IMG/VR virus record: IMGVR_UViG_3300021335_000009
Location: 1 to 64,000 of that record
Length of the DNA: 64,000 nt
Reading direction: 5' to 3' (one strand)
From: a virus
Shown here: positions 1 through 41,573 of the stretch, one piece after another
Layout of the letters: the number at the start of each line of letters is the position of its first letter
How positions within the stretch are numbered: position 1 is the stretch's first letter
The notes under the pieces: generated by a model
Told to the model about the DNA's origin: nothing
The model's input: only the letters and a program-made list of their open reading frames with translations
Databases searched by the model: none
Translations under genes and position numbers: made by a program

Positions 1-112
1 TTCTGTTTTTATAAAAATGCTTAAATGTGGCGCGAGCTGTTAAAATGCCAATAGGCATCCATCCGTAATCTAACAGCAGCGTTGTGCGGTCATTGGGTTT
101 TGTTTTATTCAT
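1..112 (-). CDS. 5' part of a probable HNH endonuclease-family protein (runs off window start)
   Basis: Minus-strand ATG at 112, open to position 1: MNKTKPNDRTTLLLDYGWMPIGILTARATFKHFYKNR. Resembles the 'LLLn..y.P..i....Af' N-terminus of McrA-like HNH proteins; the HNH motif itself is outside the window. Confidence 0.45.
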   Translation of the reverse strand, partial: MNKTKPNDRTTLLLDYGWMPIGILTARATFKHFYKNR

Positions 113-656
113 TTTTTAAAAAAATACAAGTTGAGTCACGAACATAAGAAAACCCATAGATTTTAGCGCTCCCATAAACCTTAGCATTCTCATAAACCTT
201 GGCATTCCCATAGATTTTAGCACTCCCATAAACCTTAGAATTTCCAGAGATCCAAGCTTGTTCAGAAACATTAGATTTTCCATAGATTTTAGTGCTCCCT
301 TGTATCCAAGCGTTTCCATAGGTCTTAGCCCACCCATAAACCCGAGCTCGTCCAGAAACACGAACGCTTCCATAAACCCGAGCTTTTCCAGAGACACGAG
401 CTTTTCCAGAGACCCGAGCATTTCCATAGACCCGAGCGTTCCCATAGACCCGAGCGTTCCCATAGACCCGAGCGTTCCCATAGACCCGAGCATTTACACA
501 AATCCAACAAAAACCTTCTTGAGAAAGATTTTTTTCGCTTTGCACAAAGCCTCCCAAATCTCCTTTTTTAATATCGCCGAAGTCTTTTAAAGCTTCGATT
601 CTGTAAAGAGTTTTGTTTCTTATAGTTCTTGTTTCGTTTGTCAGTTTGTATTTCAT
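105..656 (-). CDS. Hexapeptide-repeat (beta-helix) phage protein, paralog 1 (basic repeats)
   Basis: N-domain MKYKLT...LYRIEALKDFG..KKGDLGGFVQSEKNLSQEG followed by (V/I)YGNAR-type 6-aa repeats. Confidence 0.8.
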   Translation of the reverse strand: MKYKLTNETRTIRNKTLYRIEALKDFGDIKKGDLGGFVQSEKNLSQEGFCWICVNARVYGNARVYGNARVYGNARVYGNARVSGKARVSGKARVYGSVRVSGRARVYGWAKTYGNAWIQGSTKIYGKSNVSEQAWISGNSKVYGSAKIYGNAKVYENAKVYGSAKIYGFSYVRDSTCIFLKNE

Positions 657-676
657 TTTTAAAATTATTTAGAAAC

Positions 677-1189
677 TCAAGCTTCGTCAAAAACTTCAGC
701 TTTGCCAGAAACGCAAGTTTTGTCGAAAACCCGAGCCTCGTCAAAAACACGAGCTTTGTCAAAAACACGAGCTTCGCCAGAAACCCAAGCCTCTCCATAA
801 ACCCAAGCTTCTCCATAAACACGAGCTTCGTTAAAAACCTCAGCTTTGCCATAAATCCATGCTTCGTCATAAACACGAGCTTCTCCATAAACCAAAGCTT
901 TGCCATAAATCTGAACTTTGTCATAAATCCGAGCTCTGTCAAAAACCTGAGCTTCTCCAAAAACCTTAGCTTTTTCATAAACCCAAGCTCTGCCATAAAC
1001 ACGGGCTTCTCCAAAAACACAAGCTTCGTCAAAAACCCAACAAGAACCCTCTTGAGAAAGGTTTTTTTCGCTTTGCACAAAGCCTCCCAAATCTCCCTTT
1101 TTAACATTGCCGAAGTCTTTTAAGGCTTCGATTCTGTAAAGAGTTTTGCCAACCACAGTTTTCGTTTCGTTTGTAAGTTTGTATTTCAT
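677..1189 (-). CDS. Hexapeptide-repeat phage protein, paralog 2
   Basis: Same N-domain; VYGEAR/VFDKAR repeats. Confidence 0.8.
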   Translation of the reverse strand: MKYKLTNETKTVVGKTLYRIEALKDFGNVKKGDLGGFVQSEKNLSQEGSCWVFDEACVFGEARVYGRAWVYEKAKVFGEAQVFDRARIYDKVQIYGKALVYGEARVYDEAWIYGKAEVFNEARVYGEAWVYGEAWVSGEARVFDKARVFDEARVFDKTCVSGKAEVFDEA

Positions 1190-1197
1190 TTTTAAAA

Positions 1198-1920
1198 TTA
1201 TTTAGAAACCCAAGCTTCGCCAAAAACGTCAGCTTTGCCAGAAACACGATCTTTGCCAGCAACCCAAGCTTTGTCGAAAACCCGAACTTCTCCATAAACC
1301 TCAACTTCGTCAGAAACACGAGCTTCGTTAAAAACCTCAGCTTTGTCATAAACACGAGCTTCGTTAAAAACCTCAGCTTTGCCATAAATACAAGCTTTGC
1401 CATAAATACGAGCTTCTCCAAAAATACAAGCTTCGCCATAAATACAAGCTTCTCCAAAAACCCAAGCTTCGCCATAAATACGAGCTTTTGCACAAGCCAC
1501 AGCTTTGTCAGAAACCCAAGCTTTTCCAAAAACACAAGCCTCTCCATGAACCTCAGCTTCGCCAGAAACACGAGCTTCGCCAGAAACACGAGCTCTACCA
1601 GTAACCAGAGCTACTTCAAAAACATAAGCTTCGTTATAAATACGAGCTTCTCCATAAACACGAGCTTTGTCGAAAACCTTAGCTTTTTCATAAACCTCAG
1701 CTTTTTCATAAACCCAAGCTCCGCCAGAAACACGAGCTCCTTCAAAAACACAAGCTTCGTCATAAATCCAACAAAAACCCTCTTGAGAAAGGTTTTTTTC
1801 GCTTTGCACAAAGCCTCCCAAATCTCCTTTTTTAACGTTGCCGAAGTCTTTTAAAGCTTCGATTCTGTAAAGAGTTTTGTTTCTTATAGTTCTTGTTTCG
1901 CTTGTAAGTTTGTATTTCAT
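1198..1920 (-). CDS. Hexapeptide-repeat phage protein, paralog 3
   Basis: Same N-domain; start placed at ATG 1920 (MKYKLT) by homology to the two paralogs. Confidence 0.8.
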   Translation of the reverse strand: MKYKLTSETRTIRNKTLYRIEALKDFGNVKKGDLGGFVQSEKNLSQEGFCWIYDEACVFEGARVSGGAWVYEKAEVYEKAKVFDKARVYGEARIYNEAYVFEVALVTGRARVSGEARVSGEAEVHGEACVFGKAWVSDKAVACAKARIYGEAWVFGEACIYGEACIFGEARIYGKACIYGKAEVFNEARVYDKAEVFNEARVSDEVEVYGEVRVFDKAWVAGKDRVSGKADVFGEAWVSK

Positions 1921-1961
1921 TTTTTTATAAAAAACCAAAAAACAACATCTGTCAAGAAAAA

Positions 1962-2035
1962 TGGACTACTAAGTGAATTCTGCCATCACATCTCTTGGGT
2001 TGCAACCAAGCGCATAACTTTTCTGCCATTAGTAG
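1962..2035 (-). tRNA. tRNA-Cys(GCA), atypical T-arm
   Basis: Acceptor CTACTAA/TTAGTAG, U73, encoded CCA; anticodon arm CTTGG-TTGCAAC-CCAAG; T-loop GGCAGAA non-canonical. Confidence 0.8.
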
Positions 2036-2046
2036 CTTAAAAAAAA

Positions 2047-2121
2047 TGGTAGCCCATAAGAGACTCGAACTCTTTCCTCATCCTTGAAGGGGATGCGATC
2101 TACCTATAATACTAATGGGCC
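2047..2121 (-). tRNA. tRNA-Glu(TTC), C33 variant
   Basis: GGCCCAT/ATGGGCT-A-CCA; anticodon arm CATCC-CCTTCAA-GGATG; T-arm AAGAG-TTCGAGT-CTCTT. Confidence 0.8.
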
Positions 2122-2126
2122 TTAAA

Positions 2127-2201
2127 TGGGGGTTCCAGAGGCAATCGAAGCCTCAACTTGGGGTTACAAATCCCGTGTTTTGCCGCTTAAACTATAGAAC
2201 C
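2127..2201 (-). tRNA. tRNA-Thr(TGT), mismatched anticodon stem
   Basis: GGTTCTA/TGGAACC-C-CCA; CGGGA-TTTGTAA-CCCCA; T-arm GAGGC-TTCGATT-GCCTC. Confidence 0.7.
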
Positions 2202-2203
2202 AG

Positions 2204-2281
2204 TGGTGGAGAACGGTCGGAATCGAACCGACGACCTTCTGAGTGCAAATCAGACGCTCTACCAACGTGAGCTACGCCCCC
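2204..2281 (-). tRNA. tRNA-Ala(TGC)
   Basis: GGGGGCGTAGCTCA...TCTGA-TTTGCAC-TCAGA...GTCGG-TTCGATT-CCGAC...ACCA. Confidence 0.92.
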
Positions 2282-2285
2282 AAAA

Positions 2286-2361
2286 TGGTGGAAACTCAGG
2301 GAATTGAACCCTAACCTCTTCGTCTTCAGCGAAGCGTGCAGACCTGCTACACTAAGTTTCC
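2286..2361 (-). tRNA. tRNA-Phe(GAA)
   Basis: GGAAACT/AGTTTCC-A-CCA; CTTCG-CTGAAGA-CGAAG; GGTTCAATTCC. Confidence 0.9.
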
Positions 2362-2363
2362 AA

Positions 2364-2437
2364 TGGCATCGCAAGAAGGGCTTGAACCTTCACAAAGAGT
2401 TTTGGAGACTCTCGTGCTACCATTACACCATTGCGAT
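2364..2437 (-). tRNA. tRNA-Trp(CCA)
   Basis: ATCGCAA/TTGCGAT-G-CCA; AGAGT-CTCCAAA-ACTCT; GAAGG-TTCAAGC-CCTTC. Confidence 0.92.
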
Positions 2438-2447
2438 ATATAAAACT

Positions 2448-2486
2448 AAAAAGAACAAAAAACCCCAAGCTTTTGACTTGGGGCTT
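2448..2486 (-). terminator. Intrinsic terminator (attenuator) between leader ORF and tRNA operon
   Basis: Minus strand AAGCCCCAAG-TCAAAAG-CTTGGGGTT followed by TTTTGTTCTTTTT. Confidence 0.85.
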
Positions 2487-2511
2487 AATATGATTAAAAC
2501 AAAAAAATAAA

Positions 2512-2595
2512 TCACCGTTTCAAAATATTGCACCCCAAACAGAAACTACATTCTGCTGTCGCTGTGGTGGCCCATTCTGTAAATAATTGATTCAT
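2512..2595 (-). CDS. 27-aa attenuator leader peptide MNQLFTEWATTATAECSFCLGCNILKR
   Basis: ATG 7 nt after a TATAAT box; codons 5-16 are exclusively F/T/E/W/A/C, the amino acids of the six downstream tRNAs; 3' end forms an antiterminator arm. Confidence 0.8.
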   Translation of the reverse strand: MNQLFTEWATTATAECSFCLGCNILKR

Positions 2596-2602
2596 CGCTA
2601 AT

Positions 2603-2630
2603 ATTATACACGCAAAAATAAAAAAGTCAA
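2603..2630 (-). promoter_or_regulatory. Sigma70-type promoter of leader/tRNA operon
   Basis: TTGACT-N16-TATAAT on minus strand. Confidence 0.85.
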
Positions 2631-2681
2631 CATTAAAAATCTAAAAAATCACAAACAAAACAAAAAGGTGTAAAAAAAAAT

Positions 2682-4502
2682 ATGGTTACGGCTTCGGATG
2701 AGAGTTATATAATTTTGCAAAATACTTTGTTAACAGGTATAACAAACTTGTCTTTTAGCTATTCCTCAAATCAAGAGGCGACTTATCTTTTGTCCAACAA
2801 AGGGATAAATAGAAAAATAAACAGTCCTCAAGTAATCGATTGTTCTATACGAAAAAAATATTTAGGAAAAGACTTTTTAAAAGACTTGACGGGTTTTGCA
2901 GGATTGTCTGGACAATTTATTTATGGCCAAAATGCTTTAGATTTTAACGATGCTGCTATTTCTAGCTATTCTATAGCAATGAAAACAAATCAATTGCCCG
3001 AAATAAATATTAATTTAAAAATTTTTGGCGATCTATCTCCTACCACAAATCTAAGAAAAGCAACAGCTTTTGCAGATAATGATAATTTAAATTTGGGGCA
3101 GGATTCTATTTTTTTTAATTTTTTAAATAAAAACTCAGCGATTGATGATTTTTCTTTTTCGGCTAATTTTCAAATAGAGCCGACTTACGAAATAGAGTCT
3201 ATAAAATCTTCCAAGGTAAAAATTTTGCCGCCTGTTTCTTATTCTACTTCTGCTTCTATAGAAATGACAGAGCAAGAATACGAAGATGTGACAGGTCTTT
3301 TGCAAAATGAAAATTACGATAGGCAAGTTTCTTTATCCTTTGTTGATTTACAAGCTATAGAAAACGTACAAACAATAGAGCAGGAGTATTTGTCTTTTAC
3401 TGGTAGCGGATTAGAAACAGGCGTTTATAATTTAGAGTTTGATACGGGATTTGCCAATTTAGACACGTTTTCTTTTTCTAAATTTGGATTAAGCTCTCAA
3501 AACATTTCTATAACTCCAAGAGACACTATTAAGCTTAGTGTTTCTTATGATGGATATGATTTGTCTTTGCCTACTGGCAGCGCAAGTTCTGTTTCTTCTT
3601 TTGAGCATCCTTCAAGTGTTGTAAGCGGTATTCAGTCTCAAGTAGACTCTGCGATTCAACATTTTAAAGATTCATATTTCGATATTCCTAAAATTACGGG
3701 AGAAGATTTTGAAAACACTGTTGAAGAAAGACTGTTGTTAGAAAACGAATCGTTCTTGCTTTTAGAGAATGGGGACAGATTTGTTGGAAATTTTGTTTAT
3801 TCTGAGTACGCCTTAACTGGAGCTGAATATTCTGATAGTGGGTATATTTTTGATTTTAATCAAAGGTCTGTTATCCAAAAAGAAGATTTCGAATCTTTTG
3901 AAACGGGGCAAACAAATCAAAATTTACATTTTTTAGCTATAGATGGATTTACTATACAGGATTTCGAAACAGAAATTACAGGACAATTTAACAACCAAAT
4001 TCACGACTTAAATCCATTAATATTTGAACAAGACTTCGAAACAGAGCTCCAAGGAACTACTTTTAAAAATATATATAATTTAAACGAAGCTATGCAAATA
4101 GAGAGCTTTGAAGCTGAAGCTTTAGGGCTTACCAATAAAAATTTATATTATTTAGGATCAGTCACACTTTCTGTTAATCCTCCTGATCCTGAGCCTGAGC
4201 CTATTGACAGCGGAAACTGGCAAGAAGAGTCTATAGAATACTTTCATATAAACTCAGCGCCAAGCGGGGTAGAAAAAACATTTATAACAAATTCTTCTCT
4301 AGAAAGCGGATTTGTAGATAATTTTAGCCCTACTTTAATAAGTATTACAGAAGAAGACGGAAGCACTTCTCAAAAATATTTTTTGACTAAAAATGTAGGG
4401 GGATCGGCTTCCGAAAATATTCCCTCTGGATTTCAAGAAGAAACTATTAACTACGTAGATAACTCTCAATTTATTGAAAAAATATTCTTAACAAAACAAT
4501 AA
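2682..4502 (+). CDS. Putative tail/virion structural protein
   Basis: 606 aa; GTGTAA late motif 8 nt upstream; repeated (E/Q)DFExxxxG motifs and LLLENxxxLLLENGD motif typical of tail accessory proteins. Confidence 0.55.
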   Translation: MVTASDESYIILQNTLLTGITNLSFSYSSNQEATYLLSNKGINRKINSPQVIDCSIRKKYLGKDFLKDLTGFAGLSGQFIYGQNALDFNDAAISSYSIAMKTNQLPEININLKIFGDLSPTTNLRKATAFADNDNLNLGQDSIFFNFLNKNSAIDDFSFSANFQIEPTYEIESIKSSKVKILPPVSYSTSASIEMTEQEYEDVTGLLQNENYDRQVSLSFVDLQAIENVQTIEQEYLSFTGSGLETGVYNLEFDTGFANLDTFSFSKFGLSSQNISITPRDTIKLSVSYDGYDLSLPTGSASSVSSFEHPSSVVSGIQSQVDSAIQHFKDSYFDIPKITGEDFENTVEERLLLENESFLLLENGDRFVGNFVYSEYALTGAEYSDSGYIFDFNQRSVIQKEDFESFETGQTNQNLHFLAIDGFTIQDFETEITGQFNNQIHDLNPLIFEQDFETELQGTTFKNIYNLNEAMQIESFEAEALGLTNKNLYYLGSVTLSVNPPDPEPEPIDSGNWQEESIEYFHINSAPSGVEKTFITNSSLESGFVDNFSPTLISITEEDGSTSQKYFLTKNVGGSASENIPSGFQEETINYVDNSQFIEKIFLTKQ

Positions 4503-4518
4503 AAGTGTAAACAAAATT

Positions 4519-5373
4519 ATGTCAGGCGGAACAATTTATAAAAAACAAGTAATAAGTGGAGCTCAACAAGGAACTGGAGACAACAGTTTGATCATTGGGC
4601 CAAAGCACGCTTACCAAGTGCCTTTTTCCTTTGGGGATAATTGGGAAGAAATTAACATCGGTGCATTTTTTAGTGTAGTAAGCGGAGATTCTCTTAATTC
4701 TGGATTTGGCGTTTCAAACAAAATTTCAGGAGGAACCACAAACGACACATTTACATGGATAGGAATTACAAAAAACGCACAAACAAAAACTCTTCCTTTG
4801 GATGCTGCCAATCAAGGATTTGTAGGGTATAAAGCCGATACTATTTATTTTACAAATTCAAGTGGTAGTCAACACAATAGTCACCATTGTTATGTTTTAA
4901 ACGATTCCAATAGTCAGGCGGAAATAGTGTCTTCTTATGGGGAGTCTGTATTATATGATACTTTTTTTGGTTATAACAATGGACTTATTAATACTAGAGG
5001 ATACACTGACGGAACAGATGGCCCACAAAATTCTGGAAATTTTTGTTCATATTTTGGAATTAAATATACTGTAAACAACAAAGGAGCCTCTAATCAATCT
5101 ATTTCAATAGCAATGTGTAAGCCTAGCGGGTGGTTTGGTAATTTGCACCCTCTTGATGATGAAAATTTTTATTCTAATCCTAGTTCAGTCGAATTAAGAA
5201 GTTTATTAGATGGGGACCAAACAGAAGTAGGCCTTTCCACTCATGGTTTTATTCAAAATGGGGCGGCTATTGATTTGCCAGATTCTTTTTTCTTTTATAA
5301 TGGTTTTGACGAAAGCGCTAACGAAAACGTAAGGCCAAGAATACATGCCTGGGCCGTTAAAAAAATTAGATAA
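4519..5373 (+). CDS. Hypothetical virion protein
   Basis: 284 aa, G/S/N-rich, GTGTAA motif upstream. Confidence 0.5.
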   Translation: MSGGTIYKKQVISGAQQGTGDNSLIIGPKHAYQVPFSFGDNWEEINIGAFFSVVSGDSLNSGFGVSNKISGGTTNDTFTWIGITKNAQTKTLPLDAANQGFVGYKADTIYFTNSSGSQHNSHHCYVLNDSNSQAEIVSSYGESVLYDTFFGYNNGLINTRGYTDGTDGPQNSGNFCSYFGIKYTVNNKGASNQSISIAMCKPSGWFGNLHPLDDENFYSNPSSVELRSLLDGDQTEVGLSTHGFIQNGAAIDLPDSFFFYNGFDESANENVRPRIHAWAVKKIR

Positions 5374-6156
5374 ATGCCAACAGAAACACCCTTTAAAGCC
5401 TTGGGTCTCAAAAATGGGTTTCCAAATTACATATCTCAGGACGTAACAGATTATGACAGTTGGACGACGTTGAGCGGATGGAGTAAAACAAATCAACCAT
5501 CTACACAATCTGCACAATTAGCTAGCATTGAAGAATCAAGGCGACTAGCTATGCTATTATTTTGGAATTTAAGCGAAGTCACTGGAACATTAAATACGTC
5601 AAGCAATGAACATGGTGCATCTAGTTTAAATTCTTCAGGCATAACAGGTCAGCCAAAAAATAGAGTACACTTATCGTCTATTGCAAATTTTGCAGAAGAT
5701 GGCGACGAATATCCTACTCTTGGATCACATTCACAATTAGGAACATTTAGTAATGGTTTTAAAATAGCGGAGCTTTATAACAATTCTGTATTTGTTGGCT
5801 ATGGAGTTGATTATGGTTTTCAAGCTAGAACTGACGCTGCTGCTTATTTAATGAGAGTTGACTCTAGGGTGCAGTTACGTTCTTATTATTCATATACTGT
5901 GAACCAATATGAAGATAGAGCTTACGTAAATTTAACTATAAATAATAACACTTTTTATTTAGTTTGTACGGCAAGAGTATATACGCAGTCATGGCATTCT
6001 ACAGGAACTACAACTGTCAATAAAAATGCGGCTAATTTGTTAGCTGAAGGCACGGCAAGTAGGAAATTTCCACTAGAAAATGGTGAGTATGGTCCGCTTA
6101 CACAAGTAGCAACTTCTAAGGCTCAAATTAATTCTTTAAATTTTTACACTTATTGA
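5374..6156 (+). CDS. Hypothetical virion protein
   Basis: 260 aa ORF abutting the previous gene; S/T/N-rich. Confidence 0.5.
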   Translation: MPTETPFKALGLKNGFPNYISQDVTDYDSWTTLSGWSKTNQPSTQSAQLASIEESRRLAMLLFWNLSEVTGTLNTSSNEHGASSLNSSGITGQPKNRVHLSSIANFAEDGDEYPTLGSHSQLGTFSNGFKIAELYNNSVFVGYGVDYGFQARTDAAAYLMRVDSRVQLRSYYSYTVNQYEDRAYVNLTINNNTFYLVCTARVYTQSWHSTGTTTVNKNAANLLAEGTASRKFPLENGEYGPLTQVATSKAQINSLNFYTY

Positions 6157-40604: not shown

Positions 40605-41573
40605 ATGCTATTTGAAGAACAAATTTCTAGAAAACCTAACTTGTATCCTTGGACAGAAGAATTTATTCATGCCATGTGGAATGGCCACTGGACAGACCGA
40701 GAATTTTCTTTTAAATCGGACATTCAAGATTTCAAAGTCAAGCTTTCTAATCAAGAAAAAGAAATGGCTTCTAGGGCTTTGTCCGCTATCGGGCAAATAG
40801 AAGTTGCGGTAAAAACTTTTTGGGCAAAATTGGGCGACAATTTACCTCACCCTTCGATTCAAGACATGGGTTACGTCATGGCGAATATCGAATGTATTCA
40901 TAATTCGGCCTACGAAAGACTGCTGAAAGAGTTAGATTTAAACGATCTTTTTGAAGAAAATTTGAAATTAGATTGGATAAAAGGAAGGGTTAAATATTTA
41001 AAAAAATACACTCACAAATTTCACGCAGACAACAAAAAACAATTTATTTATTCTTTGATTTTGTTTACTTTGTTTGTCGAGAATGTTTCTCTTTTTTCGC
41101 AGTTTTATGTTATCCTCTGGTTTGGTAGAAAAAATTTATTAAAAGACACTTGCCAGCAAGTTCTTTATACCCTAAAAGAAGAAGATATTCACGCCAAAAT
41201 AGGGATGAAGTTAATCAACGCGATTAGAGAAGAGTATCCTGACTTATTTGACGAAGGCCTCCAAAAAAGAATTCTCGAAGAGGCTAAAGAAGCTTACAAA
41301 GCAGAAGAAAAAATGGTAGATTGGATGGTAAATGGCAAAAAAGGAGATTACTTAAACGCCTCTTTGCTTAAAGAGTTTATCAAAAACAGAATAAACGATT
41401 CTTTAGCAGAAATTAAATATCCTAAAATATTTGACATCGACAAAAAAATCATAAAGAATACTCAATGGTTTGACGAAATGGCTTACGGAAACAACATGGT
41501 AGATTTTTTTAACCAAAGGCCTACAGAATACTCCAAAAAAAGCCAATCATTTGAAGAAGAAGATTTATTTTAA
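40605..41573 (+). CDS. nrdB: Ribonucleotide reductase beta subunit (NrdBi/class Id-like)
   Basis: QIEVAVKTFW, ECIHNSAY, ENVSLFSQF, EEDIH, DFFNQRPTEY. Confidence 0.93.
   Translation: MLFEEQISRKPNLYPWTEEFIHAMWNGHWTDREFSFKSDIQDFKVKLSNQEKEMASRALSAIGQIEVAVKTFWAKLGDNLPHPSIQDMGYVMANIECIHNSAYERLLKELDLNDLFEENLKLDWIKGRVKYLKKYTHKFHADNKKQFIYSLILFTLFVENVSLFSQFYVILWFGRKNLLKDTCQQVLYTLKEEDIHAKIGMKLINAIREEYPDLFDEGLQKRILEEAKEAYKAEEKMVDWMVNGKKGDYLNASLLKEFIKNRINDSLAEIKYPKIFDIDKKIIKNTQWFDEMAYGNNMVDFFNQRPTEYSKKSQSFEEEDLF

What the first reader, a model, noticed from the sequence alone, without database searches (positions are those of the whole stretch)
1962..2630. Multi-tRNA-sensing attenuator: a leader peptide whose codons match the phage's own tRNA operon
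Seen on the minus strand: a consensus promoter (TTGACT-N16-TATAAT, 2630-2603), then 7 nt later a 27-codon ORF missing from the ORF track (2595-2512, MNQLFTEWATTATAECSFCLGCNILKR), then an intrinsic terminator (2486-2448), then tRNA-Trp, Phe, Ala, Thr, Glu and Cys. Codons 5-16 (TTT ACA GAA TGG GCC ACC ACA GCG ACA GCA GAA TGT) encode only F, T, E, W, A and C, and all six are represented, exactly the six tRNA specificities. Each anticodon has a perfectly cognate codon in the leader (TGG, TTC, GCA, ACA, GAA, TGC). Established: amino-acid operon attenuators (trp, his, thr, ilv) use this leader/terminator logic. Inference: ribosome stalling on any of these codons, through host tRNA cleavage by anticodon-nuclease defences or through starvation, lets transcription read through and supplies replacement tRNAs. 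This would be an inducible, self-limiting counter-defence circuit working as a six-input OR gate. I do not know of this being described for phage tRNA operons, but could not search.
Basis: partly seen in the sequence, partly recalled or inferred. Interest (0 to 1): 0.95.

Follow-up and report, generated by a model that had tools for sequence, protein, structure and literature searches.

The report
Leader-peptide attenuator gating phage tRNA genes
A marine phage places a tiny, probably translated test gene and a transcription stop signal in front of its tRNA genes; the test gene is spelled in the amino acids those tRNAs carry, so the phage probably makes the tRNAs mainly when ribosomes read those codons slowly.

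Summary
The observation largely holds. On the minus strand there is a strong promoter (2630-2603), a 27-codon ORF (2595-2512) and a canonical intrinsic terminator (2486-2460 plus U tract). Then come five canonical tRNA genes: Trp, Phe, Ala, Thr and Glu. The sixth, "Cys", is only a non-canonical tRNA-like element.

Codons 5-15 use only F, T, E, W and A. That 11-codon run is unique in the 84-kb genome, where the next longest is 7. None of 20,000 random 300-nt windows reached it.

- The ATG lies 7 nt after the -10 box, as in five real genes of this phage, so the mRNA is probably leaderless.
- No second promoter feeds the tRNAs.
- Four natural variants keep the frame, and their changes inside the run stay within the set.
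- Related phages carry a different leader (KTTETNNRPQSS) before a different tRNA set.

Weak points:
- The antiterminator pairing is not better than in shuffles.
- The relatives' leader is only marginally significant.
- Nothing here is experimental.
- The counter-defence purpose and the "six-input" claim are unsupported.

Unchecked notes from this scan report the same design on many other phage genomes. Seven paper searches found no description of it.

Verdict: probable translation-coupled attenuator of tRNA genes, a new variant of a known kind.

The parts
2603..2630 (-). Sigma-70-type promoter TTGACT-N16-(TG)TATAAT; the only promoter upstream of the tRNA genes on this strand
   Evidence: 11 of 12 matches, the best of 16 sites in 1-6000; same hexamers and 16-nt spacer as promoters of five protein genes in this genome. 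Relatives have TTGAC[AT] promoters before their tRNAs.
2512..2595 (-). 27-codon leader ORF, probably on a leaderless mRNA (ATG 7 nt after the -10 box)
   Evidence: ATG at +6/+7 after the -10 box also for the genes starting near 40605, 51073, 55246, 58327 and 62577; only 3 of 69 ORFs of 100 aa or more have a Shine-Dalgarno-like motif; the frame stays open in four natural variants (27, 27, 27 and 26 codons).
2551..2583 (-). Control-codon run, codons 5-15: TTT ACA GAA TGG GCC ACC ACA GCG ACA GCA GAA (F T E W A T T A T A E). Together with the A-U-rich flanks it forms region 1, which pairs with region 2
   Evidence: 11-codon run, next longest in the genome is 7; 0 of 20,000 random windows reach it; pairs with 2541-2529 in the minimum-free-energy fold.
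2532..2538 (-). Region 2, the 5' arm of the predicted antiterminator (UUGGGGU, inside codons 20-22)
   Evidence: in the nascent RNA lacking the terminator's 3' arm it pairs with 2484-2478; the pairing is not stronger than in shuffles (p 0.08 and 0.14).
2451..2486 (-). Intrinsic terminator: 11-bp stem AAGCCCCAAGU/GCUUGGGGUUU, 5-nt loop, U tract. Its 5' arm is shared with the antiterminator
   Evidence: two substitutions seen in all four variant contigs (2481, 2484) keep pairing in both helices (G.U to A-U, C-G to U.G).
2364..2437 (-). tRNA-Trp (CCA); starts about 13 nt after the U tract, leaving no room for a promoter
   Evidence: 63.6 bits.
2286..2361 (-). tRNA-Phe (GAA)
   Evidence: 62.7 bits.
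2208..2281 (-). tRNA-Ala (TGC)
   Evidence: 58.9 bits.
2127..2201 (-). tRNA-Thr (TGT)
   Evidence: 51.6 bits.
2047..2121 (-). tRNA-Glu (TTC)
   Evidence: 46.6 bits.
1962..2035 (-). Non-canonical tRNA-Cys-like element (GCA anticodon loop, U73, CCA; aberrant D and T arms); membership of the unit is doubtful
   Evidence: found only in ARAGORN's metazoan-mitochondrial mode; not found; the X4 contig replaces 1987-2040 by 9 nt.

Best explanation
This is a translation-coupled transcription attenuator that gates the phage's own tRNA genes.

Host RNA polymerase starts at the TTGACT/TATAAT promoter, at or next to the A of the AUG, giving a leaderless mRNA. A ribosome begins translating the 27-codon leader while the RNA is still being made.

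- If Phe, Thr, Glu, Trp and Ala codons are decoded quickly, the ribosome leaves region 1 (the control run). Region 1 then re-pairs with region 2 (UUUCUGUUUGGGGUG), or the ribosome at the stop codon sits between regions 2 and 3. The terminator hairpin (2486-2460) forms and transcription stops before tRNA-Trp.
- If the ribosome lingers on the control codons, region 1 is masked. Region 2 is free to pair with the terminator's 5' arm (GCCCCAA), the terminator cannot form, and the polymerase reads into the Trp, Phe, Ala, Thr and Glu genes.

The extra tRNAs speed up decoding and shut the gate again, so the device is a demand-driven, self-limiting tRNA supply.

Shown from sequence: the parts, their order, the compositional match, the shared start geometry, the absence of another promoter, and the variation pattern in nature.
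Inferred: translation of the ORF, stalling, the switch between helices, and the physiological trigger. Candidate triggers are a codon-usage mismatch with the host, loss or cleavage of host tRNAs, or starvation.
For: 1. Composition. The 11-codon run uses only the five amino acids of the five canonical tRNAs, and all five are present.
   - The genome-wide next best run is 7.
   - 0 of 20,000 random windows in two backgrounds reach 11.
   - Extrapolating the roughly five-fold drop per added codon gives about 0.005 such runs expected in the whole genome (my arithmetic).
   - Seven of the 11 codons are exact complements of the anticodons (ACA x3, GAA x2, TGG, GCA). TTT and GCG fit by wobble.
2. Specificity control. 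0 of 29 tRNA blocks in six unrelated cultured-phage loci show an in-set run with p below 0.2; the lowest is 0.24.
3. Start geometry. A 16-nt spacer and an ATG at +6/+7 after the -10 box are shared with five protein-coding genes of this genome. Only 3 of 69 ORFs have a Shine-Dalgarno-like motif, so a start without one is normal here.
4. Wiring. The terminator lies between the only promoter and the tRNAs, and tRNA-Trp starts about 13 nt after the U tract. The upstream gene is divergent. The tRNAs can therefore be made only by read-through.
5. Structure.
   - The leader folds better than shuffles (z -3.1; 2 of 200 shuffles fold as well).
   - The fold pairs the control run with region 2.
   - The nascent RNA folds an antiterminator.
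   - With a ribosome mask at codons 9, 11, 12 or 13, the full-length minimum-free-energy fold switches to the antiterminator.
   - With no ribosome, or with a ribosome at codons 22, 27 or the stop, it is the terminator.
6. Natural variants in four marine metagenomes.
   - The ORF stays open (27, 27, 27 and 26 codons).
   - Changes inside the run are A9T (stays in the set), ACC to ACA (synonymous) and a 3-nt in-frame deletion removing one Thr codon.
   - TGC to TGT at codon 22 is synonymous.
   - The two changes in the shared arm keep both helices.
7. Relatives. Nine viral contigs carry a different 21-codon leader whose run is KTTETNNRPQSS. It has the same layout: a promoter motif at gene-like distance, a GGGG segment near the ORF's end, and a terminator. 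It stands before tRNA sets drawn from Met, Glu, Thr, Ser, Tyr, Asn, Lys, Gln, Arg and Pro.
   - The two runs share only T and E, the two isotypes common to both sets.
   - L035 has N9S (AAT to AGT) and carries a tRNA-Ser(GCT).
Against: - No experimental or RNA data exist for this phage.
- The antiterminator complementarity is not better than in dinucleotide shuffles: duplex energy p 0.08 of 2,000 shuffles, folding gain p 0.14 of 500.
- With a ribosome mask, only 4 of 12 control-codon positions give an antiterminator as the minimum-free-energy fold.
- GCC and ACC in the run are not read by UGC/UGU anticodons under standard wobble.
- The relatives' leader is weak evidence taken alone. With each locus's own tRNA set, p is 0.08-0.5. 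With the pooled set, a run of 12 or more occurs in 988 and 1,081 of 20,000 windows. Its full-length fold always keeps the terminator.
- In those relatives the leader does not track tRNA content closely. L014, L018 and L027 keep CCA without a tRNA-Pro. L018 keeps Ser codons without a tRNA-Ser. L027 has R11G although tRNA-Arg is present.
- In those relatives a TTGACA promoter follows the terminator, so their tRNAs do not depend on read-through.
- The closest relatives (L001, L002, L004, L010, L012, L017, L023) have no leader ORF at all.
- The X9 variant's nascent fold does not show the antiterminator, although its list of differences is incomplete.
Confidence: 0.66

Rival explanations
1. An independent small transcript (small RNA or small-peptide gene) with its own terminator. 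The tRNAs are then made by a fixed, unregulated leak through that terminator, and the codon match is coincidence or irrelevant.
For: Relatives carry, at the same place, units of about 100 nt from a GTGTAA motif to a terminator with no credible ORF: L002, L004, L013, L015, L017 and L023. A small terminated transcript before the tRNAs is therefore a family habit. The antiterminator is not beyond shuffles.
Against: The compositional match is far beyond chance and sits exactly here. In those relatives a promoter follows the terminator, whereas here none does, so a plain stop signal would silence five intact tRNA genes. Natural variants keep the frame, including a 3-nt deletion.
Confidence: 0.14
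2. The ORF encodes a functional small peptide, for example a Thr/Ser/Cys-rich modified-peptide precursor or a metal-binding CxxCxxC peptide. Its composition reflects that function, not sensing.
For: The peptide has 4 Thr, 1 Ser and 3 Cys in a C-x2-C-x2-C arrangement. The ORF is kept open in variants.
Against: The residues vary in nature (A9T, S17I, L20S, loss of one Thr), while membership of the run in the tRNA set is kept. Trp, Phe and Glu also match the tRNAs. I saw no modification enzyme beside the ORF: the neighbours are a 606-aa protein with no PHROG hit and beta-helix repeat paralogs. I did not screen the whole genome for such enzymes.
Confidence: 0.06
3. Translation-independent sensing. 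The codon run acts as a row of specifier triplets that pair directly with the anticodons of uncharged or charged tRNAs, in the manner of a T-box, and so shift the terminator/antiterminator balance.
For: Seven of 11 run codons are exact anticodon complements. A terminator/antiterminator pair is predicted.
Against: No T-box or other leader family matched at E<=1. The element is about 110 nt and I saw no T-box-like features. The ATG sits at the same distance from the promoter as in real genes. An in-frame 3-nt deletion and synonymous changes point to reading as codons.
Confidence: 0.04

Closest known systems
Leader-peptide transcription attenuators of enterobacterial amino-acid operons (trpL, hisL, pheL; the multivalent thrL and ilvL). 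Textbook knowledge, recalled; for pheL I saw only the listing and the start of the abstract of PMC3082878.
   Same: A short ORF at the 5' end of the transcript with a run of codons for the sensed amino acids. It is followed by mutually exclusive 1:2, 2:3 and 3:4 helices and an intrinsic terminator before the regulated genes. The multivalent leaders sense more than one amino acid.
   Different: The regulated genes here are tRNAs, not biosynthetic enzymes. Five amino acids are sensed, chosen to equal the downstream tRNA set. The mRNA is probably leaderless. The unit is in a phage. The output (tRNA) acts directly on the sensed step, decoding speed.
   Same: Leader-peptide attenuation applied to a gene of the translation apparatus. 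It responds to the supply of charged tRNA rather than to a biosynthetic need.
   Different: One amino acid only; the product is a synthetase, not tRNAs; it is cellular, not viral.
Leaderless polycysteine short ORFs of mycobacteria (Canestrari et al., bioRxiv 10.1101/834739; abstract read).
   Same: A leaderless short ORF at the head of a polycistronic transcript in which ribosomes stall on a codon tract and so change downstream expression.
   Different: According to its abstract, the stalled ribosome there unmasks a ribosome-binding site (translational control). Here a transcription terminator is the predicted switch, five amino acids are involved, and the targets are RNA genes.
T-box riboswitches (family name recalled).
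   Same: The status of tRNAs decides between a terminator and an antiterminator upstream of translation-related genes.
   Different: T-boxes bind tRNA directly without translation and control synthetase and amino-acid genes. No such family matched here at E<=1.
Phage-encoded tRNAs as a means to evade tRNA-targeting defences (Nat Commun 2024, PMC11555353; listing and start of abstract only).
   Same: Gives a reason why a phage might need to replenish particular tRNAs during infection.
   Different: What I saw of that work concerns the tRNAs themselves, not a leader-peptide control of their transcription. Nothing here links this phage to such a defence.

Membership tests
Leader-peptide transcription attenuator | Short ORF at the 5' end of the same transcription unit as the regulated genes | tested here: met
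   Promoter 2630-2603, ORF 2595-2512, tRNAs 2437-2047, all on the minus strand with no intervening promoter.
Leader-peptide transcription attenuator | Run of codons for the sensed amino acid(s), beyond chance | tested here: met
   11-codon run within {F,T,E,W,A}; next best in the genome is 7; 0 of 20,000 random windows in each of two backgrounds.
Leader-peptide transcription attenuator | Intrinsic terminator between the leader ORF and the regulated genes | tested here: met
   11-bp stem plus U tract at 2486-2451.
Leader-peptide transcription attenuator | Antiterminator helix mutually exclusive with the terminator, and a 1:2 helix that involves the control codons | tested here: inconclusive
   Predicted and kept in the X3/X5 and X4 variants. 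Its complementarity is not beyond shuffles (p 0.08 and 0.14), and only 4 of 12 masked positions switch the minimum-free-energy fold.
Leader-peptide transcription attenuator | The leader is translated | not testable with these tools
   Indirect only: promoter-to-ATG geometry as in five real genes; frame kept in four variants, including a 3-nt deletion.
Leader-peptide transcription attenuator | Read-through rises when the cognate charged tRNAs are scarce | not testable with these tools
   Needs a coupled transcription-translation assay or infection data.
T-box riboswitch | Match to the family's covariance model | tested here: not met
   Rfam scan of 1800-2800 at E<=1 returned 12 matches, none of them a T-box.
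Canonical bacterial-type tRNA (for the 'tRNA-Cys' at 2035-1962) | Detected by ARAGORN in bacterial mode or by the Rfam tRNA model | tested here: not met
   Not found (standard and lowered thresholds). Found only by the metazoan-mitochondrial mode.

The most novel reading that the evidence does not exclude
Phages have turned the classic leader-peptide attenuator into a demand sensor for their own tRNA genes. A short 'checklist' ORF, written in the amino acids of the tRNAs behind it, lets ribosome speed decide whether the tRNA block is transcribed. The window holds a minimal, leaderless, five-input version in which read-through is the only route to the tRNAs. A related phage lineage holds a second version with another checklist, and unchecked notes from this scan report the design in many other phage genomes. 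If this is general, it is an unreported class of viral gene control. It would let a phage read the state of the host's translation apparatus in real time.
Probability: 0.6. Interest if true: 0.88.

Novelty: new variant of a known kind. Interest (0 to 1): 0.8.

Why it matters
Phage tRNA genes are usually discussed in terms of codon usage or escape from tRNA-cleaving defences. How their expression is controlled is largely unknown. A leader that senses the decoding speed of exactly the codons served by the downstream tRNAs would be a closed feedback loop on translation capacity.

It would also extend a textbook mechanism, known for amino-acid biosynthesis genes, to RNA genes and to viruses. It makes a clear and cheap prediction: recode the run or limit single tRNAs, then measure read-through. 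It also suggests a way to read from sequence alone which tRNAs a phage finds limiting in its uncultured host. Seven full-text searches found no description of it.

Tried and rejected
- **Closer relatives with the same leader.** A back-translated leader pattern and the terminator pattern each found 0 viral contigs. The metagenome scan returned only the contigs already held plus one 1.6-kb piece. The genome-contig scan found no relative. No cultured phage is close. The host stays unknown. I can only say that the phage is marine (best-holding runs), poor in Shine-Dalgarno motifs and uses TTGACA/TATAAT-type promoters.
- **Contigs that encode homologs of the 606-aa neighbour.** I used an alignment-based scan of viral contigs instead.
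- **RNA evidence.** No RNA holder was listed, so nothing can be said on expression.
- **Is the antiterminator more than chance?** No.
- **Is the relatives' leader significant by the run test?** Only marginally.
- **Are the two leader families alignable?** Only at the terminator.
- **Is the leader run derived from, or complementary to, the tRNA genes?** No similarity was found; the only hits were to A/T-rich stretches.
- **Rfam families for the leader or for the conserved inter-tRNA element of relatives.** None matched.
- **Empirical p for the window.** The value of 0.002 reflects random windows that overlap the leader itself. One search, with the leader removed, is the proper figure.
- **Rows dropped.** In some searches I left out L003, L005, L006, L008 and L019 as duplicates of L002, L002, L001, L001 and L018. 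I also left out loci without tRNAs (L007, L009, L024). L011, L016 and L020 were not scored because L010, L018 and L027 stand for them.
- **X9 variant.** Only 21 of its contig's 37 differences were listed, so its leader may carry further changes.
- **Supplementary files of papers** were not consulted.
Full report
**What is there**

The window is the first 64 kb of a single 84,169-bp phage contig of about 33% G+C. It has a tape measure, tail fibre, helicase and an intein-bearing terminase-like gene.

Between 2630 and 1962, on the minus strand, the sequence reads as follows:
- TTGACT, 16 nt, TG-TATAAT;
- 7 nt, then an ATG that opens a 27-codon ORF, MNQLFTEWATTATAECSFCLGCNILKR;
- 25 nt rich in U;
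- an 11-bp G+C-rich hairpin followed by a U tract;
- about 13 nt later, tRNA-Trp(CCA), Phe(GAA), Ala(TGC), Thr(TGT) and Glu(TTC), each ending in an encoded CCA.

These are the only canonical tRNA genes in the whole genome. The gene upstream (2682-4502) is divergent. The promoter at 2630 is therefore the only visible source of minus-strand transcription into the tRNAs, and the terminator stands in its way.

**The sixth tRNA**

Only ARAGORN's metazoan-mitochondrial mode calls it Cys(GCA).

By eye it has a perfect 7-bp acceptor stem, U73, CCA and a normal anticodon stem-loop. Its D stem has 3 bp, and its T loop lacks the usual T-loop sequence.

In one natural variant (contig of run X4), 1987-2040 is replaced by 9 nt. 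This removes the D and anticodon arms. The leader of that variant still has all three Cys codons.

I therefore treat the unit as five tRNAs plus a doubtful tRNA-like element.

**Is the match more than chance?**

Codons 5-15 (F T E W A T T A T A E) use only the five amino acids of the five tRNAs, and all five occur.
- In all six frames of the 84-kb genome, runs within this set fall about five-fold in number per added codon. The longest other run is 7.
- With the leader removed, 0 of 20,000 random 300-nt windows of the genome reach 11. The same is true for 0 of 20,000 windows from relatives.
- As a control for bias near tRNA genes, I scored 29 tRNA blocks in six unrelated cultured-phage loci. 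None had an in-set run with p below 0.2.
- The run shows no sequence similarity to the tRNA genes themselves.
- Seven of the 11 codons are exact complements of the anticodons, and TTT and GCG fit by wobble. GCC and ACC do not fit under standard wobble.

**Is the ORF likely to be translated?**

There is no Shine-Dalgarno sequence, but that is the rule in this genome: only 3 of 69 ORFs of 100 aa or more have one.

More tellingly, promoters of the form TTGAC[AT]-N16-TAnnAT are followed by the ATG of a real gene at +6 or +7 five times in this genome. These genes are 322, 212, 121, 728 (DnaB-like) and 224 aa long. The same is seen in relatives. The leader ORF has exactly this geometry (N16, ATG at +7).

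The phage thus appears to use leaderless mRNAs for its sigma-70-type promoters, and the small ORF starts like its genuine genes. It fits an attenuator well, because a 5'-terminal AUG can be engaged as soon as it emerges.

**Structure**

- The 161-nt leader folds better than shuffles (z -3.1; 2 of 200 shuffles fold as well). The control run pairs with UUUCUGUUUGGGGUG (region 2), and the terminator forms separately.
- Without the terminator's 3' arm, the nascent RNA pairs UUGGGGU (2538-2532) with GCCCCAA (2484-2478), closing a branched antiterminator.
- With a ribosome-sized mask at codons 9, 11, 12 or 13, even the full-length minimum-free-energy fold is the antiterminator.
- With no mask, or with a mask at codons 22, 27 or the stop, it is the terminator.
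- At the other eight control-codon positions the terminator also wins.

The pairing of region 2 with the terminator arm is not stronger than in dinucleotide shuffles (p 0.08 and 0.14). The structural argument is therefore consistent but not independent proof. Cys codons 19 and 22 lie in or beside region 2, so a stall there should favour termination, not read-through.

**Natural variation**

Contigs from four marine metagenomes of four studies cover the leader.
- All four carry C>U at 2481 and G>A at 2484 on the minus strand. These turn C-G into U.G and G.U into A-U in the terminator, and they keep the corresponding antiterminator pairs.
- All four carry the synonymous change TGC>TGT at codon 22.
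- The two more divergent contigs (X4, X9) have GCC>ACC at codon 9, which is Ala to Thr and stays inside the set.
- X9 also has the synonymous ACC>ACA and a 3-nt in-frame deletion that removes one Thr codon.
- Outside the run there are S17I (X4, X9) and L20S (X4).
- Applied to the window's sequence, these changes give ORFs of 27, 27, 27 and 26 codons with the same stop. The runs read FTEWTTTATAE(C) and FTEWTTTAAE(C).

The frame and the set membership are kept, while individual residues are not. That is what a sensor of codon identity predicts and what a functional peptide does not. The sample is small, and X9's list of differences is incomplete.

**Relatives**

Homologs of the 606-aa neighbour mark the syntenic place in 22 viral contigs. 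Most carry tRNA blocks there, with varied content.

- *No leader.* The closest relatives (L001, L002, L004, L010, L012, L017, L023) have a TTGAC[AT] promoter directly before the tRNAs, or before a 77-aa ORF and then the tRNAs. They have no leader ORF.
- *A second leader.* A second group of nine contigs has a GTGTAA motif, 12 nt, then a 21-codon ORF, MLIKTTETNNRPQSSIGAFVV (leaders read in L014, L015, L016, L018, L027, L030, L034 and L035).
  - Its ATT GGG GCT codons can pair with the 5' arm of a following terminator.
  - After the terminator comes a TTGACA promoter, and then the tRNAs: Met, Glu, Thr, Ser, Tyr, Asn, one with an odd anticodon loop, Lys, Gln, Met and Arg.
  - Pro(TGG) is present in L015, L034 and L035.
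  - Every residue of the run K T T E T N N R P Q S S belongs to the pooled tRNA set of this lineage.
  - AGA, CAA, TCA, CCA, GAA and ACA are exact complements of the anticodons.

The two leader families share only T and E in their runs, and these are the two isotypes the two tRNA sets share.

It is weak in three respects.
- The run is not significant with each locus's own set (p 0.08-0.5). It is only marginal with the pooled set (about 5% of random windows).
- The leader does not follow recent gains and losses of tRNAs. CCA is kept without tRNA-Pro in L014, L018 and L027. Ser codons are kept without tRNA-Ser in L018. R11G occurs in L027 despite a tRNA-Arg.
- In the other direction, L035 combines N9S (AGT) with a tRNA-Ser(GCT), and T8M in L015 and L034 stays in the set.

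**How it most likely works**

See Best explanation. The window's version is the cleaner case, because read-through of the terminator is the only route to the tRNAs. The trigger for slow decoding is not determined. Possibilities include a mismatch between the A+T-rich phage's codon demand and the host's tRNA pool, loss or cleavage of host tRNAs during infection, and amino-acid starvation.

**Comparison with what is known**

The device works like the multivalent leader-peptide attenuators of enterobacterial amino-acid operons (recalled textbook knowledge). It resembles the leaderless polycysteine short ORFs of mycobacteria in its start (abstract of 10.1101/834739). It is not a T-box.

Seven full-text searches found no description of leader-peptide control of phage or cellular tRNA genes. 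Subscription journals and supplements were not covered.

**Earlier notes of this scan**

After forming my reading I looked them up. Unchecked AI notes report the same design on many other phage genomes, mostly assigned to Bacteroidota or Flavobacterium-type hosts. One note on this window describes the antiterminator. I count them as leads, not evidence, and I could not test them.

What I tested myself is the window, its natural variants, its relatives and the six control loci. The host assignment in those notes does not obviously apply here, because this phage's promoters are of the TTGACA/TATAAT type.

**Verdict**

This is a real and statistically striking feature. It is most likely a ribosome-mediated attenuator that gates five phage tRNA genes (confidence about 0.66). 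It has five inputs rather than six. Its purpose (homeostatic tRNA supply) is inferred and its trigger is unknown. It is a new variant of a known kind and is of high interest.

Noticed in passing
window 40571, 51039, 55212, 58293, 62542 (+) and 2630 (-): TTGAC[AT]-N16-TAnnAT promoters are followed by the gene's ATG 6-7 nt after the -10 box. This phage, and relatives L001 and L002, therefore seem to express their sigma-70-type transcription units as leaderless mRNAs. Only 3 of 69 ORFs have a Shine-Dalgarno-like motif.
   Followed up: partly
L002 5840-5940, L004 1580-1690, L013, L015, L017, L023 (minus strand of each locus): Relatives carry a unit of about 100 nt running from a GTGTAAC motif to a strong terminator (AGCCCCAA...TTGGGGCTTTTT). 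It has no credible ORF and lies just upstream of the tRNA promoter. It is a candidate small RNA of unknown role. L015 has both this unit and the leader ORF unit.
   Followed up: no
L001 2620-2700, L002 5390-5470, L004 1185-1270, L010, L014, L018 (minus strand): A conserved element of about 85 nt (…GTAATTCCTCTGCGACGGCGGGGGTTGATAATGAGGATAAGGA…CTCCCTCACACTTT) directly precedes tRNA-Lys, tRNA-Gln or tRNA-Met in many relatives. No Rfam family matches at E<=0.01 in L014.
   Followed up: partly
window 1962-2040: The Cys-like tRNA element contains a 9-nt direct repeat (ATGGCAGAA on the minus strand). One natural variant contig (X4) has what looks like a deletion between the repeats, leaving an acceptor-stem minihelix with CCA.
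   Followed up: partly
L014 4594-4676 and L027 (record G005): ARAGORN reports a tRNA of about 83 nt with a four-letter anticodon (ccat) and no assigned amino acid. Rfam scores it as a tRNA (48.5 bits). It could be an Ile/Met-type tRNA with an odd loop or a frameshift-type tRNA.
   Followed up: no
window 105-1920 (-): Three tandem paralogs (183, 170 and 240 aa) of a beta-helix repeat protein lie just downstream of the tRNA unit. They match phrog_7964 and phrog_5070, annotated elsewhere as polymer-forming cytoskeletal or LpxA-like. The first has its own TTGACA promoter at 1955-1950 and an ATG close behind it.
   Followed up: no
L001 3400-3600, L002 5600-5800, L010, L012, L023 (minus strand): A conserved 77-aa ORF (MIIEEI…GFVVCF) sits between the TTGACA promoter and the tRNAs in several relatives, where the window has the 27-codon leader.
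   Followed up: no
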